This document shows positions 39,763-47,859 of a DNA stretch of 64,000 nt, piece by piece. The notes below the pieces were generated by a model, which saw nothing but the letters and a program-made list of their open reading frames with translations, did no database searches and was not told the DNA's origin. This DNA is from a phage: the NCBI GenBank assembly GCA_012557565.1, contig GCA_012557565.1_3926.1; one strand, given 5' to 3'. The translations under genes and the position numbers were made by a program. The stretch's first letter is position 1, and each line of letters begins with the position of its first letter.

Positions 39763-40336
39763 GAAAGGTATTGTCCGAGTTTTGGTTGATGTTATTGGTC
39801 ACCGTTTAGCGAGAGACAAGAATAACAGACCAAATGTTATTAGGGCTTACCCTTCAGATAATTCCAATGATAAAGGTCTAAAACCAGACCAGCCTTTTAT
39901 TACAGTATACTGTCAAGATGCCACCACACCTTATGGTTGGGTTCTTGATAAGTTCGTGGAAGATGATGTAGTTTGTTATAGAATTGCTTTTCAGATTCCT
40001 GTACTGATTACTGTAAATGGTAAAGGTGCTCACAGTATTATGCTTGAGCTAAAACAAAGATTAGAGATGAGTACTACAAGAGATTATCTAGCTGACATGA
40101 CAGGTGCTTCAGTACTTGATACAGGGGCTATCCCAAATGATTATACTTATCTCAACACAGATTTTGAAAATTCTGCACCTCTTGTTGTAACCCTTGTAAA
40201 AAATTCAGTATTAAAAGATGAACGTGGAAGTATTATTGAACGTGTCATTGTGGATGGTGAATTGGTTTACGAGGAAGGACAGGAGCCACCAGAATATACT
40301 ATCCATCTAGATGTAGACTCCAAAGGGGTAAAATAA
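39737..40336 (+). CDS. hypothetical tail completion protein
   Basis: 199-aa ORF. Confidence 0.45.
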   Translation: MQLETAELEKGIVRVLVDVIGHRLARDKNNRPNVIRAYPSDNSNDKGLKPDQPFITVYCQDATTPYGWVLDKFVEDDVVCYRIAFQIPVLITVNGKGAHSIMLELKQRLEMSTTRDYLADMTGASVLDTGAIPNDYTYLNTDFENSAPLVVTLVKNSVLKDERGSIIERVIVDGELVYEEGQEPPEYTIHLDVDSKGVK

Positions 40337-41689
40337 ATGTGGAATCCAATTGTTAATGTAGATATTACATTGAACACAGCAGGAACTACAAGAGAAGGTT
40401 TTGGTTTACCATTATTCCTTGCTTCAACAGATAACTTTGAAGAAAGAATCCGTGGTTATACTTCATTAACAGAAGTAGCTGAAGACTTTGATGAAAGTAC
40501 TGCTGCGTATAAAGCTGCAAAACAGCTATGGAGCCAAACTCCAAAAGTAACTCAACTATATATTGGTAGAAGAACTATGCAATATACTGTTTCTATTCCC
40601 GACACAGTGGCTGAAGGAAGTGAATATTCATTGACAGTTGCTATTGGTGGTGGTGTTTCTCAGCCATTCCAGTACACTGCAAAAGAAAACGACACAGCAC
40701 TTATTGTCTTGAATGAGTTTAAATCACAGATTGAAGCAAGCCCAACAATTAAAGATGGTGTTAATGTTAGTGTAACAGGTACTGGTGCTTCTGCGGCGAT
40801 GATTATTACTAAAGCTGGTGATAACGACTTCGTAAAAGTAACGTCTATTACATCTACAACATCTATTGCAGCAACAACTGCTGACACGGCTTCCGCTGCT
40901 CTGGCATCCATTGAAGCATATTCAACAGATTGGTACTTCATCTCAGCAGAAGACAGAACTCAACAGTTTGTCTTGGCAATGGCTTCAGAGATTCAGGCTC
41001 GTAAGAAGATTTTCTTCACAGCTAATGCTGACGTTAAGGCTCTGCAAGGCACTGATTTGACCTCTGCAACAGATGTTTCGGCACAGTTAGCTAAGAGCAA
41101 GTACACTCGTACAGTTTGCTTGTGGCATCACACAGCCGAGTATGACTACCCAGAAATGGCTTACATCGCATATGGTGCTCCATATGATGCAGGTTCAATT
41201 GCTTGGGGTAACGCTCAATTAACTGGTGTTGCAGCATCTCTACAACCTGCTAACCAGAGACCACTGACAAGCATTCAGAAGTCAGCTTTAGATACCCGTA
41301 GCTGTAACTTCATTGACCTCGATGGTGGGGTTCCTGTAGTGCGTAGAGGTATCACTTCTGGTGGTGAATGGATTGATATTGTACGTGGTGTTGATTGGCT
41401 TGAATCTGATTTGAAAACATCTCTGAGAGACTTGCTAATTAATCAGAAGGGTGGTAAGATTACTTATGATGATACTGGTATTACCCGTATTCGTCAGGTC
41501 ATTGAAACATCTCTTCAGCGAGCAGTTAACAGAAACTTTTTGTCAACTTACACCGTTACTGTTCCTAAAGCCTCACAAGTTGCATTGGCAGATAAGAAAG
41601 CACGTATCCTGAAAGACGTTACCTTCCACGGTATTCTTGCAGGGGCTATCTTGGATGTTGACTTGAAAGGCACAGTGGCTTACGAATAA
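40337..41689 (+). CDS. tail sheath-like protein (putative)
   Basis: 450-aa ORF immediately followed by a 148-aa tube-sized ORF, chaperone pair and tape measure; assignment by gene order and size only. Confidence 0.4.
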   Translation: MWNPIVNVDITLNTAGTTREGFGLPLFLASTDNFEERIRGYTSLTEVAEDFDESTAAYKAAKQLWSQTPKVTQLYIGRRTMQYTVSIPDTVAEGSEYSLTVAIGGGVSQPFQYTAKENDTALIVLNEFKSQIEASPTIKDGVNVSVTGTGASAAMIITKAGDNDFVKVTSITSTTSIAATTADTASAALASIEAYSTDWYFISAEDRTQQFVLAMASEIQARKKIFFTANADVKALQGTDLTSATDVSAQLAKSKYTRTVCLWHHTAEYDYPEMAYIAYGAPYDAGSIAWGNAQLTGVAASLQPANQRPLTSIQKSALDTRSCNFIDLDGGVPVVRRGITSGGEWIDIVRGVDWLESDLKTSLRDLLINQKGGKITYDDTGITRIRQVIETSLQRAVNRNFLSTYTVTVPKASQVALADKKARILKDVTFHGILAGAILDVDLKGTVAYE

Positions 41690-41703
41690 AGGAGTAATTA
41701 GGA

Positions 41704-42150
41704 ATGGCTATGTATCAGCAATATTCCCCTAAAGATGTAGTTTGTAGCTGGAATGGCATTGCCATTGAAGGTTTTGCACCAGACTCATTCTTGCGTCTTC
41801 AGAGAACTTCTCCACTTGTTACGCCAGTTGTAGGTGCAGGTGGTCAAGTAGCTCTGACAAGAAATGCAGACAAGACAGGTACGATTGAGATTGAGCTAAT
41901 GCAGACTTCTCTATCTAACCAGATGCTTTCTGCAATTCAAGCTAAACAAGATGACATGGAACTTGAAGAAGACATTTCATCTAACTTCGTAATTTATGAC
42001 CCATCCGGTTCAGTACTGGCTACAGGTATCAATGCTTGGTTGCAAGAGCTTCCACAGATTGAACTTGGACGTGACCAGAACTCTAAAACTTGGATTTTCG
42101 GTTGTGAGAAGTTAGACTACGCTTCAACAATCCCTGCGTCAAGCGTTTAA
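41704..42150 (+). CDS. tail tube-like protein (putative)
   Basis: 148-aa ORF after sheath-like gene; strong terminator downstream. Confidence 0.4.
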   Translation: MAMYQQYSPKDVVCSWNGIAIEGFAPDSFLRLQRTSPLVTPVVGAGGQVALTRNADKTGTIEIELMQTSLSNQMLSAIQAKQDDMELEEDISSNFVIYDPSGSVLATGINAWLQELPQIELGRDQNSKTWIFGCEKLDYASTIPASSV

Positions 42151-42163
42151 CAAATCCTAATAA

Positions 42164-42198
42164 GGGGGAGACTGTAAAAGGTCTTCCCCTTTTGTGTT
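42164..42198 (+). terminator. rho-independent terminator
   Basis: GGGGGAGAC-TGTAAAAG-GTCTTCCCCC hairpin followed by TTTTGTGTTTTT. Confidence 0.6.
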
Positions 42199-42226
42199 TT
42201 TATACCAGAACTTTTAAGGAATCACA

Positions 42227-42628
42227 ATGAAAACTGAAACTAAAATGATTAATGGCAAGAAGGTAACTATTATTCTTCTTGGAGCTAGAGATGGTATCCG
42301 TATCTCTATGAAGCTTGGTAAAGCAGTTGTACCAGCATTTGCACAGATGTTCTCTGGACTAACCTCAAAAGATGGAGAGGTGAAAGTTCCCTTTAAAGAG
42401 CTTGTAGAAGCTTGCTTTGAAAAGGTTGATGAACTGGATATTGATGCAATGGCAGAGACACTATTTCAGGGGGCAACGGTTAATGACTTCCCACTGAAAA
42501 TTGATAGTTACTTCCAAGCAAACTATGGTGAATTTATTGACTTCTTAGCATTTGCTCTGGAGGCAAACTTCGGAAGTTTTTTCGAGGCAAGCATTTTCAA
42601 AAGCCTAACTTCTCAGCAGGAAGGTTAA
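42227..42628 (+). CDS. tail assembly chaperone (G-like, upstream frame)
   Basis: 133-aa ORF between tube and tape measure; contains slippery heptamer T_TTT_TTC near its 3' end. Confidence 0.55.
   Translation: MKTETKMINGKKVTIILLGARDGIRISMKLGKAVVPAFAQMFSGLTSKDGEVKVPFKELVEACFEKVDELDIDAMAETLFQGATVNDFPLKIDSYFQANYGEFIDFLAFALEANFGSFFEASIFKSLTSQQEG
42577..42583 (+). other. putative -1 programmed ribosomal frameshift site (T_TTT_TTC)
   Basis: Heptamer is in the XXXYYYZ register of ORF 42227-42628; the -1 frame is open from 42583 through ORF 42637-42864 (hand-checked, no stop). Confidence 0.55.
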
Positions 42629-42636
42629 GTTATTCT

Positions 42637-42864
42637 ATGCAGACCCCGCTGACTGACGGGGCTGTAGAGGCAACTTATCAAGAAGCAGATGAGATGAAAT
42701 TTGTGCTTGCTATTTACGGTATGGACGGGTGTAAAGAAACACTCGACCAACTTTTTAATATGACATTCGTTGACTTATTATCTCTGCGTCAGTATCTGGA
42801 AATCCAGAAGTCATATAAAGAGGAATTGGCTTACAACGAACTTAGAAAAGCAGGTAAAATTTAA
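42637..42864 (+). CDS. tail assembly chaperone frameshift extension (GT-like C-terminal part)
   Basis: 75-aa ORF in the -1 frame relative to upstream chaperone, ending at tape measure start. Confidence 0.5.
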   Translation: MQTPLTDGAVEATYQEADEMKFVLAIYGMDGCKETLDQLFNMTFVDLLSLRQYLEIQKSYKEELAYNELRKAGKI

Positions 42865-45097
42865 TGGCACAATATACAGTTGATAGTTTTATTGTTGAAC
42901 TTGGATTCAGTGAAAAGGTTGTTAAGGGTTTACAGAGAGTTGAGAAAATGGCTATGCAGTCTGCTCAACGTATCGAACGTAATATTAATAAAGCCTTTGA
43001 CGTGAAACCTAATAAGAGTTCCCAAGACGCTCTAAACAGACTTGTAAAGAATGCTCAGACTGCTTCAGGCAGAATCAATAAAGCACTCAACAACTCCCTT
43101 AACCTTGATTCACAAGGTGTTAAATCTCTTAAAAGACTGGAAACTCAAGGTAGAAAAACTGCCAAGGGAATTAACAAGGCTTTAAGAGACGCTATGAAAG
43201 TTGATGGAAAAGTAACTATTCGTGGTGGTAGAAAAGGTGGTACTGGTTTCCCTCCTACAGGTGGGAGTGGCAACCCAAGACCTACAAGACCGGATATTGC
43301 TCAGAGACAGATGGAAAGAATGTTTAACAACAACTTCTATTCTGGTCTGACACGTCGCCTTGAAACTATTGGTGGACAAGGCAACCAAATGGCAGCTTCC
43401 TTCAGAGGAAACTTACAAGGTCTTTATAACAAATATAAGGGAACTGGTAAAGTCGGTGAATATGAGATGGAAGTCAAAAAGCTCATTGACGTTACCAAGC
43501 GTTGGGTTATTGCAGAAAATGCTAGACTCAAGTCAGTCAGAGAATCAGCTTGGCTTCAGGAAAGAGCTAACTCATCTCTACGTCAGATGATTGGTGGTTT
43601 TGTTTCAGCTTATGCAGCCTTAGAATTGGCTCAGAAAACGATTGATGCAGGTGTTAAAAGACAGTCTGCACAGTTAGCCTCAACAGCTATCTTTGGAGCA
43701 GATACACAACAAGCTAGAATGTTCGCTGCAACATTTGCTCACCAGATTGGTCAGAGTTACACAAGCACTATGAAACAGTATTCAAACTTTGCTGCTGGTG
43801 CTCAACCTGCACTTGGTTTTGAAGGGACTCAAGAGTTCTACAAGAATGCTGCTATGTTCTCCCGTATCAGGGGTGCTAGTGATGAAGACTTGAAAGGTAT
43901 CATGGTTGCTTTCCAACAGATGGCATCTAAAGGTAAGATTCAGGCTGAAGAACTTCGTGGGCAGTTAGGTGACCGTTTAGCAGGTGCTGTACAGCTATTC
44001 GCTGATGCTATTGGTAAGACACCACAAGAACTTGATAAACTTATGAAAGATGGTAAGCTTCTTGCTAATGAAGTTCTACCAAAAGTCTCTGAGAGAATGG
44101 CTGAACTCGTAGAAGCAGCAGGTGGTATGAATGCCGTATCTAAGCAGACAGCTACCTCAATGGGTCAAGCAAAAGCTATGTGGGATAACACGCTTGTAGC
44201 ACTGTTCAACAACTCTAGTGAAGGTATTTCACAACTCTCTAACTCTATTGCAATGTTCTTGCAAGGTTCACTTGGTACATCTCAGGCACTTGGTACAGGT
44301 ATTGGTTACCTTTTGAAAGGTGCTAGTAACCTTCTGGACTTTGTGACAGACATTATGTATCGCATCTCTTCATTGTACTACACCTCAATGGGGTATTTCA
44401 AAGAGTTGGATGCAAGCCAACAGAAACTAATTAAAGATTCTGCTGAGTTAGTTGCAACATTCACAGCTATTGGTGTTGCAATTGCAGCTATTACAAAAGT
44501 TGCTAAAATCTTTGGTGGTACTGTAGCATTTGTCAAGAGTATTTTTGAAGAAGGTATCTTAGCTAAGATTGCACAGAAGTTTGGGTTAACTACAGCAGCA
44601 GAAACAGCAGCTACAACGGCTGGTGTATCAGCAACCAGAATGGCTCTTGGTGTAGGTGGTTCTGCATTAATGTTATCTGGTTCAGTTGACAAGAATGCTG
44701 GAAAGAGATTTAACGAGGTTAACACACCTAATCCTTTCAATGAAGCTATCTCAGGAATCACTAATCCAAAACGTCCAATGTTCTTTGACCAGAATGGACA
44801 ACTTCAGTTTGCACAATATACCACAGACACTTCTGGAAATATTCAGAGGGTTGATAATGGTTTGTCAAATTGGGATATTATCATGAACAACCTGTCTGAG
44901 TCTCTAAATAACTTTGCAAACAAGTTTAACCAGACACCTATGATGATGACTCCCTCTGGACTACCATTGCAAACTAAGCAGACGCTTAACGTTTCCTTTA
45001 ATCTGGATGGTAAGCAGATTGCTACTAAGATGGTGGATATCACTGATAAGAGTCAGGAAGATATTCTGTTAAACTCTAGCTACCCAGAGGATGAATA

Positions 45098-45098
<1 letters not shown>
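42864..45098 (+). CDS. tail tape measure protein
   Basis: 744-aa ORF after chaperone pair; helical N-terminal part and Gly/Ala-rich hydrophobic C-terminal segment. Confidence 0.65.

Positions 45099-47859
<2,761 letters not shown>

What the first reader, a model, noticed from the sequence alone, without database searches (positions are those of the whole stretch)
42577..42583. Candidate -1 programmed frameshift (T_TTT_TTC) linking the two tail-chaperone ORFs
The heptamer lies in the correct XXXYYYZ register 45 nt before the stop of ORF 42227-42628, and I verified by hand that the -1 frame is open from the slip site into ORF 42637-42864. The position between tube-like and tape-measure genes matches the conserved G/GT chaperone frameshift of tailed phages and supports the tail-module assignment.
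Basis: partly seen in the sequence, partly recalled or inferred. Interest (0 to 1): 0.4.

Follow-up and report, generated by a model that had tools for sequence, protein, structure and literature searches.

The report
Known tail-chaperone -1 frameshift site
The T_TTT_TTC site is real and very probably a ribosomal slip site that lets a Felix O1-like phage make a short and a long tail-assembly chaperone from one start, but the same site is already annotated and published for sister phages, so it is an ordinary finding.

Summary
TTTTTTC lies at 42577-42583 in the register T_TTT_TTC of ORF 42227-42628. It ends 45 nt before that ORF's stop, and the -1 frame is open from 42541 to 42864.

The window is a Mooglevirus (Ounavirinae, Felix O1-like), 99.9% identical to Citrobacter phage BSwM KMM4. 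The gene order is sheath, tube, chaperone G (Pfam Phage_TAC_15), T ORF, tape measure.

Comparison supports a programmed -1 shift giving G (133 aa) and GT (212 aa):
- The heptamer is kept in register in every intact Ounavirinae locus examined, down to 42% protein identity.
- It is kept as T_TTT_TTN in 39 of 44 more distant viral contigs.
- Codons around it are almost invariant (11 of 15 columns against 6 of 212 elsewhere).
- The ATG at 42637 is not conserved, and many relatives have no start codon for the T part.

No conserved stimulatory RNA structure was found.

The site is not new. GenBank holds the 212-aa joined product for Moogle, Mijalis and Michonne, and their genome announcements state the frameshift. 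Nobody has shown it experimentally.

One published oddity remains. In phage Sf14 particles, mass spectrometry found the T-ORF product but not G.

The parts
42227..42628 (+). Gene G: tail assembly (tape measure) chaperone, 133 aa, 14.7 kDa. This is the zero-frame product. AAGGA lies 6 nt before its ATG.
   Evidence: ORF. Pfam PF21822 Phage_TAC_15, E=4.5e-20. PHROG 1613, E=1.1e-48; mass.
42577..42583 (+). Slippery heptamer T_TTT_TTC (Ser-Phe-Phe, codons 117-119 of G). Proposed site of tandem tRNA-Phe -1 slippage.
   Evidence: sequence and register. (conservation in register). UUY A-site codons and all-pyrimidine heptamers are frameshift-prone in E. coli (PMC4066793).
42583..42864 (+). The -1-frame part of GT: 93 codons plus stop (RGKHFQKPNFSAGRLSYSMQTPL...KAGKI). 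Joined to 42227-42583 it gives the 212-aa, 23.9-kDa GT protein.
   Evidence: open frame, fusion sequence; the fusion hits PHROG 3840, 1613 and 4963; the equivalent fusion in Moogle/Mijalis is identical to GenBank AIW03804.1, ARB06563.1 and YP_009145710.1.
42541..42628 (+). Overlap in which both the zero frame (G tail) and the -1 frame are open (88 nt).
42574..42602 (+). A 29-nt block, AAGTTTTTTCGARGCAAGCATTTTCAAAA, identical in 36 of the 41 loci held, including relatives with 42-45% protein identity. Best explained by dual coding; it has no significant structure.
   Evidence: block; 11 of 15 codon columns invariant here against 6 of 212 elsewhere, Fisher p=9e-12; no structure.
42637..42864 (+). 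The 75-aa ORF that most database records annotate as a separate 'tail assembly chaperone'. Its ATG is clade-specific and its Shine-Dalgarno sequence is poor (GGAAGG 11 nt upstream).
   Evidence: the ATG aligns with CTA in Felixounavirus and TGC/TGT in Erwinia-type phages, and some relatives have no start until codon +55. Sf14 gp42.
42559..42563 (+). GGAGG, 13 nt upstream of the heptamer. A possible Shine-Dalgarno-like stimulator of the dnaX type; unproven.
   Evidence: kept in the Moogle, Felix and SUSP clades; also kept in Pectobacterium phage Wc4-1; lost in L031, which encodes the same residues as TTA GAA, and in L030/L032. SD-like elements 6-17 nt upstream count as stimulators (PMC4066793).
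41704..42150 (+). Tail tube gene (upstream neighbour).
   Evidence: E=1.5e-95 to PDB 9c39_G (Sf14 gp40) and 7e-95 to 9mt4_P 'Tube protein'..
40337..41689 (+). Tail sheath gene.
   Evidence: PHROG 205 tail sheath, E=4e-118. DUF3383.
42864..45098 (+). Tape measure protein gene. Its ATG overlaps the T/GT stop (TAATG, 42862-42866).
   Evidence: TMP_3. PHROG 4036; sequence.

Best explanation
This is a programmed -1 ribosomal frameshift of the lambda G/GT and P2 E/E+E' kind, in the tail assembly chaperone gene of a Felix O1-like myophage.

Most ribosomes read 42227-42628 and release G (133 aa). A minority behave differently. With tRNA-Phe on UUU in the P site and tRNA-Phe on UUC in the A site, both tRNAs slip back one base onto U_UUU_UU. 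The ribosome then re-reads C42583 as the first base of CGA and continues in the -1 frame to 42864. That makes GT (212 aa), which shares its first 119 residues with G.

By analogy with lambda, the G part would bind the tape measure protein encoded immediately downstream, and the T part would recruit the tube protein, so the fixed G:GT ratio would be set by slip efficiency.

Shown here: the site, its register, the open frame, the gene context, the family-wide conservation and the lack of a conserved own start for T. Inferred: that slippage actually occurs, that it is ribosomal, its efficiency, and the protein functions.
For: 1. Anatomy: register and open -1 frame; sole heptamer in the overlap.
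2. Context: sheath, tube, TAC, T, tape measure.
3. Conservation among Ounavirinae: TTTTTTC in register in all 33 sequences with the region intact (the window and 32 related Ounavirinae loci), including L030-L032 at 42-45% protein identity, and in Pectobacterium phage Wc4-1.
4. Conservation among distant relatives: in 44 viral contigs at 25-49% identity, the motif N[FY]x[ST][FV][FL] is always present. In 39 of them it is encoded NNT TTT TTN (17 TTTTTTC, 19 TTTTTTT, 3 TTTTTTA). The preceding codon changes between AGT, TCT and ACT but always ends in T, and the last codon may change Phe to Leu (TTA) while staying slippery. The -1 frame is open for 76-112 codons after the site in every complete locus.
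5. Extra constraint on synonymous sites: 11 of 15 codon columns around the site are invariant, against 6 of 212 elsewhere (p=9e-12, permutation p<5e-5).
6. T cannot generally start on its own. The ATG at 42637 aligns with CTA or TGC/TGT in other genera. L030 and L032 have no start codon in the -1 frame before codon +55, L024 none before +36, and most distant contigs none before codon 24-68.
7. Heptamer type: UUY A-site codons and all-pyrimidine heptamers are in the frameshift-prone class in E. coli (PMC4066793). P2 slips at the very similar TTTTTTG without a downstream structure (PMC3091744).
8. Others reached the same prediction independently: the joined CDS in Mijalis, the identical 212-aa proteins in GenBank/RefSeq and the genome announcements.
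9. The T-frame sequence is translated in a 93.6%-identical phage: Sf14 gp42 was detected by mass spectrometry (PMC11821841).
Against: There is no direct evidence (fusion peptide, reporter assay or mutant) for any Ounavirinae phage; papers naming the frameshift give only sequence-based predictions, and a targeted search found none.

No conserved stimulatory hairpin or pseudoknot lies 5-9 nt downstream (z=-0.24 for 42584-42635; the consensus fold is -1.9 kcal/mol with no covariation). Efficiency may therefore be low, though lambda and P2 also lack such structures.

In the window's own clade a stand-alone ATG (42637) exists. In Sf14 particles the T-ORF product was detected while G was not, which is not what a simple G-plus-GT model predicts, because GT carries 119 residues of G.

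Five KPP10-like relatives lack the heptamer (TCG GTT TTT). One of them, Pseudomonas phage G1, has a strong SD plus ATG for its T-like ORF, so the family can apparently do without the canonical site.
Confidence: 0.88

Rival explanations
1. There are two independent genes. The 75-aa T protein is translated only from its own ATG at 42637, and the heptamer merely reflects a conserved Ser-Phe-Phe motif.
For: Most database records annotate two separate CDSs. The ATG at 42637 is kept in the Mooglevirus and SUSP clades, and a GGAAGG lies upstream. In Sf14 particles gp42 (T ORF) was detected by MS but gp41 (G) was not. Pseudomonas phage G1 has a strong SD plus ATG for its T-like ORF and no heptamer.
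Against: The ATG is not conserved: it is CTA in Felixounavirus and TGC/TGT in Erwinia-type phages, while the aligned T residues on both sides are conserved. L030 and L032 have no start before codon +55, and most distant contigs none before codon 24-68. The -1 frame stays open back to the heptamer in all relatives. Synonymous sites are frozen around the site. The codon before the site varies (AGT, TCT, ACT) but always ends in T, and TTA (Leu) replaces TTC, which fits selection on nucleotides rather than on residues. The SD spacing is 11 nt, and a hairpin starts 3 nt after the ATG.
Confidence: 0.05
2. The same GT protein is made, but by transcriptional slippage. RNA polymerase inserts one extra U (or drops two) in the T6 run, and ordinary translation of the edited mRNA gives GT.
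For: The site is a homopolymer run, six T here and seven or more in 19 distant relatives. A weak hairpin (42556-42574, about -8 kcal/mol) lies 2 nt upstream of the run, loosely like the hairpin-plus-T5C5 slippage signal of a Roseiflexus IS element. The protein product would be indistinguishable.
Against: Efficient slippage by bacterial RNA polymerase is described for runs of about 9 A or T, and shorter runs need a strong adjacent hairpin (PMC5009743). The upstream hairpin is not significant (z=-1.3) and is not kept in relatives. The run is kept exactly in the X_XXY_YYZ register, although register is also fixed by the conserved residues. The closest characterised analogue (P2, TTTTTTG) is described as a translational frameshift.
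Confidence: 0.05
3. It is a sequencing artefact or pseudogene: the real gene is one continuous ORF, and the apparent frame change is a homopolymer-length error in the T run.
For: Homopolymer errors do occur in this group. The KMM4 record lacks single bases in G and C runs. The MET-P1-301 record has T4 instead of T6, which fuses G and T in frame.
Against: T6 with two frames is found in all 33 independent intact Ounavirinae sequences and in 39 of 44 distant contigs. The record with T4 also has a fragmented tape measure gene, which suggests error in that record.
Confidence: 0.01

Closest known systems
Tape measure chaperone frameshift annotated in Citrobacter phages Moogle, Mijalis and Michonne (Mooglevirus)
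   Same: It is the same gene, the same heptamer and the same junction (…GSFF|RGKHF…). The window's G/T region is 98.3% identical in DNA to Michonne. The window's predicted GT differs from the Moogle/Mijalis product by 2 residues and from the Michonne product by 3. The GenBank 212-aa products AIW03804.1, ARB06563.1 and YP_009145710.1 equal the fusion built at this site. The announcements state a translational frameshift, and Michonne's says 'to the -1 reading frame'.
   Different: Nothing of substance. The nearest record to the window (BSwM KMM4) does not annotate it, and its G ORF is broken by a one-base gap. All of these are predictions only.
Bacteriophage P2 E / E+E' frameshift (contractile-tailed phage)
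   Same: Both are -1 shifts on a run of six T (TTTTTTG in P2, TTTTTTC here) near the end of a small ORF between the tube gene and the tape measure gene of a myophage. Neither has a downstream hairpin (PMC3091744).
   Different: No sequence relationship was detected: Pfam finds only Phage_TAC_15. Sizes differ (91 and 142 aa in P2, 133 and 212 aa here). The last base is C, so the A-site codon is UUC (Phe) rather than UUG (Leu), and one tRNA species (tRNA-Phe, anticodon GAA) occupies both sites.
Bacteriophage lambda G / GT frameshift (Levin 1993; Xu, Hendrix and Duda 2004, 2013, 2014)
   Same: Same genome position, the same logic of two products sharing an N-terminus, and a low-level -1 shift that sets a fixed ratio. 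In lambda the G part binds the tape measure protein and the T part binds the tail tube protein (PMC5009743).
   Different: Lambda is a siphophage. From my own knowledge, its heptamer is G_GGA_AAG. In lambda neither product is in virions, whereas T-ORF peptides were reported in Sf14 particle preparations.
E. coli dnaX -1 frameshift
   Same: A heptamer with a possible upstream Shine-Dalgarno-like element (GGAGG, 13 nt upstream here).
   Different: dnaX also uses a strong downstream hairpin, and none is present here. The GGAGG is not conserved across the family. Here the shifted product is longer than the zero-frame product, not shorter.

Membership tests
G/GT-type tail assembly chaperone frameshift (Xu, Hendrix and Duda 2004) | Two ORFs lying between the major tail/tube gene and the tape measure gene | tested here: met
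   Tube 41704-42150, G 42227-42628, T 42637-42864, tape measure 42864-45098.
G/GT-type tail assembly chaperone frameshift (Xu, Hendrix and Duda 2004) | The second ORF overlaps the end of the first in another frame, and that frame is open back to the shift site | tested here: met
   The -1 frame is open from 42541 to 42864, an 88-nt overlap. The same holds in all relatives.
G/GT-type tail assembly chaperone frameshift (Xu, Hendrix and Duda 2004) | A slippery sequence in the correct register inside the overlap | tested here: met
   T_TTT_TTC at 42577-42583. It is the only such heptamer in the overlap.
G/GT-type tail assembly chaperone frameshift (Xu, Hendrix and Duda 2004) | The shift site is conserved among diverged relatives beyond what protein conservation requires | tested here: met
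   33 of 33 intact Ounavirinae sequences (the window and 32 related loci) and 39 of 44 distant contigs carry T_TTT_TTN. The wobble T of the preceding codon is kept across AGT, TCT and ACT. Codon invariance p=9e-12.
G/GT-type tail assembly chaperone frameshift (Xu, Hendrix and Duda 2004) | The first ORF belongs to a tail assembly chaperone family | tested here: met
   Pfam Phage_TAC_15, 72.9 bits against a cut-off of 22. PHROG 1613 and 3840 'tail assembly chaperone'.
G/GT-type tail assembly chaperone frameshift (Xu, Hendrix and Duda 2004) | Two proteins with a common N-terminus are actually made, at a fixed low ratio | not testable with these tools
   No experiment exists for Ounavirinae. Only indirect evidence: Sf14 gp42 (T ORF) peptides were found by MS.
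G/GT-type tail assembly chaperone frameshift (Xu, Hendrix and Duda 2004) | Both products are needed for tail assembly and are absent from mature virions | tested here: inconclusive
   Literature only. The Felix O1 CsCl-purified virion proteome lists gp63, gp64 and gp67 but not gp65 or gp66. Sf14 particle MS lists gp42 as detected and gp41 as not detected. Requirement for assembly was not tested.
P2 gpE / gpE+E' protein family | Sequence membership in the P2 gpE chaperone family | tested here: not met
   The Pfam scan of G and of the fusion returned only Phage_TAC_15. It works like P2 E/E+E' but is not a sequence member.
Structure-stimulated -1 frameshift signals (dnaX or IS911/IS3 type) | A stable hairpin or pseudoknot starting about 5-9 nt after the heptamer | tested here: not met
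   42584-42635 folds at -7.6 kcal/mol, z=-0.24. The consensus fold of 11 relatives is -1.9 kcal/mol with no compensatory pairs. Rfam gave no relevant hit.
Structure-stimulated -1 frameshift signals (dnaX or IS911/IS3 type) | A Shine-Dalgarno-like element 6-17 nt upstream of the heptamer | tested here: inconclusive
   GGAGG at 42559-42563, spacing 13 nt. It is kept in the Moogle, Felix and SUSP clades and in Wc4-1. It is absent from L030-L032, although L031 encodes the same residues.
Programmed transcriptional slippage | A homopolymer run of about 9 or more A/T, or a shorter run with a strong adjacent nascent-RNA hairpin | tested here: not met
   The run is T6. The upstream hairpin is weak (z=-1.3) and not conserved. 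Criterion taken from PMC5009743.

The most novel reading that the evidence does not exclude
In Mooglevirus the T module may not be only the tail of a transient GT chaperone. It may also exist as a separate species that stays with the particle, either made from ATG 42637 or cleaved from GT. That would give three products (G, GT, T) and a minor virion role for T, unlike lambda, where neither G nor GT is in the virion. The basis is the published Sf14 particle proteome (T-ORF product detected, G not), together with the clade-specific ATG and the hairpin next to it.
Probability: 0.12. Interest if true: 0.4.

Novelty: already known. Interest (0 to 1): 0.15.

Why it matters
For annotation, this window and the roughly 300 related phage records should carry a joined 212-aa GT product. 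Many records, including the nearest one (KMM4), list two unrelated 'hypothetical proteins' or a broken G gene.

For biology it adds little. It is one more instance of the conserved G/GT strategy that fixes the ratio of two tail chaperones.

The modest added value of this analysis is the finding that the slip site sits in an N-F-x-S-F-F motif and is kept as T_TTT_TTN across the examined relatives of this Phage_TAC_15 chaperone, well beyond Ounavirinae, without a stimulatory structure. That makes it a convenient marker for automatic frameshift annotation in these myophages, several of which are used as therapeutic or typing phages.

Tried and rejected
1. Downstream stimulatory structure. Folding 42584-42635 and 42584-42680 gave z=-0.24 and -1.86. 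The only good hairpin (42640-42664) starts 57 nt after the heptamer, too far to act on a ribosome at the site. The consensus fold of 11 diverse relatives was -1.9 kcal/mol with no compensatory pairs. Rejected.

2. Upstream hairpin plus T run as a terminator-like or slippage signal (42556-42583, flagged). Folding gave z=-1.3 in the window, and the hairpin was not recovered in relatives. Rejected as a conserved element.

3. Rfam scan of 42100-43000: only a chance microRNA match, E=0.46.

4. Sequence search of GT against solved structures: nothing.

5. The 29-nt invariant block as an RNA element. It is absent from Wc4-1 and from the distant contigs, which still keep the heptamer. Dual coding explains it better.

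6. The MET-P1-301 record, with G and T fused in frame (T4), as a natural GT-only mutant. The record also has a fragmented tape measure gene, so sequencing error is more likely.

7. Structure prediction of G or GT was not run. The Pfam and PHROG assignments were already decisive, and a deep alignment would have cost a whole-database search.

8. The literature turned up no experimental test of the frameshift in Felix O1-like phages: the papers that name it give only in-silico predictions, and the search for Felixounavirus with tail assembly chaperone and frameshift returned no papers.

Full report
**1. The observation**

Bases 42577-42583 are TTTTTTC. ORF 42227-42628 has codons starting at 42578 (TTT) and 42581 (TTC), so the heptamer is in the X_XXY_YYZ register T_TTT_TTC. 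It covers Ser117-Phe118-Phe119 and ends 45 nt before the end of the stop codon. The frame of ORF 42637-42864 is -1 relative to it and is open from 42541 to 42864. The overlap is 88 nt and contains no other in-register heptamer.

Is the heptamer more than chance would give? On its own, only weakly. ORFs of at least 100 aa in the window hold 46 in-register XXXYYYZ heptamers in 16,363 codon positions, so a 29-codon overlap has about an 8% chance of holding one. However, this is the only one of the 46 followed by a long open -1 frame (93 codons; the next best is 25).

**2. What the region is**

The window is a Felix O1-like myophage of the genus Mooglevirus (Ounavirinae). It is 99.9% identical over 40300-45200 to Citrobacter phage BSwM KMM4, about 94% identical to Shigella phages such as Sf14, Sf17 and ESh19, and 91% identical to Citrobacter phages Moogle and Mijalis.

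The local gene order is:
- tail sheath, 40337-41689 (PHROG 205, E=4e-118);
- tail tube, 41704-42150 (E=1e-95 to PDB chains 9c39_G 'gp40' of Sf14 and 9mt4_P 'Tube protein');
- an intrinsic terminator, 42162-42201 (annotated in Mijalis);
- G, 42227-42628 (Pfam Phage_TAC_15, E=4.5e-20; PHROG 1613 'tail assembly chaperone');
- the 75-aa ORF 42637-42864 (PHROG 4963 'tail assembly chaperone', E=9e-51);
- the tape measure gene, 42864-45098, whose ATG overlaps the preceding stop (TAATG).

**3. Comparative evidence**

(a) Close and moderately distant relatives. TTTTTTC is in the same register in all 33 sequences with the region intact, that is the window and 32 related Ounavirinae loci (Mijalis and 31 IMG/VR contigs). 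These include Erwinia/Salmonella-type relatives with only 42-45% protein identity and 55-58% DNA identity. It is also present in Pectobacterium phage Wc4-1.

(b) Distant relatives. An alignment-based scan of viral contigs gave 44 more distant loci (25-49% identity).
- All 44 carry the motif N[FY]x[ST][FV][FL].
- 39 of them encode it as NNT TTT TTN: 17 TTTTTTC, 19 TTTTTTT and 3 TTTTTTA.
- The codon before the run changes between AGT, TCT and ACT but always ends in T.
- The last codon can change residue (Phe to Leu, TTA) and remain slippery.
- The -1 frame is open for 76-112 codons after the site in every complete locus, against 93 in the window.
- The five exceptions are KPP10-like Pseudomonas-phage relatives with TCG GTT TTT, which offers only a U_UUU tetramer.

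(c) Codon usage. Given the residues S-F-F, the phage's own codon usage gives T_TTT_TTY about 30% of the time per lineage, and the exact AGT TTT TTC about 4%. Retention across many lineages that are saturated at synonymous sites is therefore not a by-product of protein conservation.

(d) Codon invariance. In a codon alignment of 30 distinct GT sequences, 11 of the 15 codon columns around the site are invariant, against 6 of 212 elsewhere (Fisher p=9e-12; no permutation out of 20,000 reached this). A 29-nt block (42574-42602) is identical in 36 of the 41 loci held. This is the signature expected where two frames are both translated.

(e) The ATG at 42637 is not a conserved start.
- It aligns with CTA in Felixounavirus, which has a different ATG four codons upstream; in L024 that codon is ATA.
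- It aligns with TGC/TGT in the Erwinia-type phages.
- L030 and L032 have no ATG, GTG or TTG in the -1 frame before codon +55, although the conserved T residues begin well before that.
- Most distant contigs have none before codon 24-68.
- In the window the putative Shine-Dalgarno sequence for 42637 is GGAAGG at an 11-nt spacing, whereas G has AAGGA at 6 nt.

**4. Mechanism**

The best-supported mechanism is tandem -1 slippage of two tRNA-Phe from UUU-UUC onto U_UUU_UU. C42583 is then read as the first base of CGA.

The host-type tRNA-Phe anticodon GAA reads both UUU and UUC. The phage itself also carries a tRNA-Phe(GAA) gene at 30165-30240.

In the systematic E. coli study, UUN and AAN A-site codons are the most shift-prone, homogeneous UUY codons are better than heterogeneous ones, and heptamers whose X and Z bases are all pyrimidines are favoured (PMC4066793).

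No stimulatory structure was found at the usual distance. This matches P2 E/E+E', which slips at TTTTTTG without a hairpin (PMC3091744).

A GGAGG lies 13 nt upstream (42559-42563), inside the 6-17-nt range used for Shine-Dalgarno-like stimulators. It is kept in the Moogle, Felix and SUSP clades and in Wc4-1. It is lost in L031, which encodes the same residues as TTA GAA. It is therefore a clade-level candidate at most.

The predicted products are G (133 aa, 14.7 kDa) and GT (212 aa, 23.9 kDa). Their roles are inferred from lambda: G binds the tape measure protein, and T recruits the tube protein (PMC5009743).

**5. Rivals**

- Independent translation of T alone is contradicted by points 3(b), 3(d) and 3(e). 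It cannot be excluded as an additional route in the window's clade.
- Transcriptional slippage on the T6 run would give the same protein. Efficient slippage is described for runs of about nine, or needs a strong adjacent hairpin. The upstream hairpin here is weak and not conserved.
- A sequencing artefact is excluded by the number of independent genomes that show the same arrangement.

**6. What is already known**

The Mijalis record annotates a joined CDS over both ORFs. The fusion I built at this site for Moogle/Mijalis is, residue for residue, GenBank AIW03804.1, ARB06563.1 and RefSeq YP_009145710.1. Michonne and Mordin have a 212-aa product with the same …GSFF|RGKHF… junction.

The genome announcements for Moogle, Mijalis and Michonne state the frameshift, and Michonne's names the -1 frame. 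The finding is therefore already known as a prediction. The papers that name the frameshift give only in-silico predictions, and a targeted search returned none.

Most of the roughly 300 related records, including KMM4, still list two separate proteins.

**7. A loose end**

The Felix O1 virion proteome (CsCl-purified) lists sheath gp63, tube gp64 and tape measure gp67, but neither gp65 nor gp66. That is what is expected for chaperones.

The Sf14 particle proteome lists gp41 (G) as not detected and gp42 (the 75-aa T ORF) as detected (gene identities confirmed). This shows that the T frame is translated in a 93.6%-identical phage. It is odd under a simple model, though, because GT carries 119 residues of G with several good tryptic peptides.

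The spectra were searched against the annotated proteome, which lacks the fusion. Re-searching them for the peptides encoded between 42583 and 42636 is the cheapest decisive test.

**8. Verdict**

The feature is a programmed -1 frameshift of a well-known kind, at a site already annotated in sister phages. Confidence that GT is made by a shift at this site is about 0.9, and that the shift is ribosomal about 0.85. Novelty: already known. Interest: low.

Noticed in passing
Literature on Shigella phage Sf14 (L039/L040; homologous to window 42227-42864): Mass spectrometry of Sf14 particles detected gp42 (the 75-aa T ORF) but not gp41 (G) (PMC11821841, Table 1). The lambda paradigm does not predict this, and a simple G-plus-GT model does not either. 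The spectra (MassIVE MSV000096931) were not searched against the fusion protein.
   Followed up: partly
window 42640-42664: A hairpin, CAG-A-CCCCG / CGGGG-CTG with an 8-nt loop, starts 3 nt after the ATG at 42637. L007 and L008 carry a compensatory pair of synonymous changes (CCG to CCA with GAC to GAT). It is absent from Felixounavirus. It is too far (57 nt) from the heptamer to stimulate the shift, but it might hinder initiation at 42637.
   Followed up: partly
window 42162-42201: A strong intrinsic terminator (12-bp stem followed by TTGTGTTTTT) lies between the tube gene and the chaperone gene, and is also annotated in Mijalis. It would lower transcription of the chaperone and tape measure genes relative to the sheath and tube genes.
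   Followed up: no
L002 (OP902293.1, Citrobacter phage BSwM KMM4) against window 42150-42900: In this stretch the nearest database record differs from the window only by three single-base gaps in G or C runs. One of them truncates its G ORF to 89 aa, and the tube gene is also annotated short. These are probably homopolymer errors in that record.
   Followed up: partly
L035 (PV700625.1, Escherichia phage MET-P1-301), locus 601-1239: This record has T4 instead of T6 at the slip site, which fuses G and T into one 212-codon ORF. Its tape measure gene is fragmented as well, so this is more likely sequencing error than a natural GT-only mutant.
   Followed up: partly
L037 (Pseudomonas phage vB_PaeM_G1) and L091, L094, L101, L110, L115: KPP10-like relatives encode the motif as NFGSVF (TCG GTT TTT), so they have no canonical heptamer. 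In G1 the T-like ORF has a strong GGGGAGGGGGG Shine-Dalgarno sequence plus an ATG. This lineage may have switched to independent initiation or to single-tRNA slippage on U_UUU.
   Followed up: partly
window 25939-31167: A cluster of 25 tRNA genes, including tRNA-Phe(GAA) at 30165-30240, the species that would occupy both ribosomal sites during the slip.
   Followed up: no
L036 (Alteromonas phage vB_AmeM_PT11-V22), locus 1474-2144: This marine myophage of another genus has T_TTT_TTT at the homologous NFQSFF motif, and its -1 frame runs exactly to the tape measure start. Its record annotates only a 39-aa 'hypothetical' ORF14 there, so the frameshift is unannotated.
   Followed up: partly
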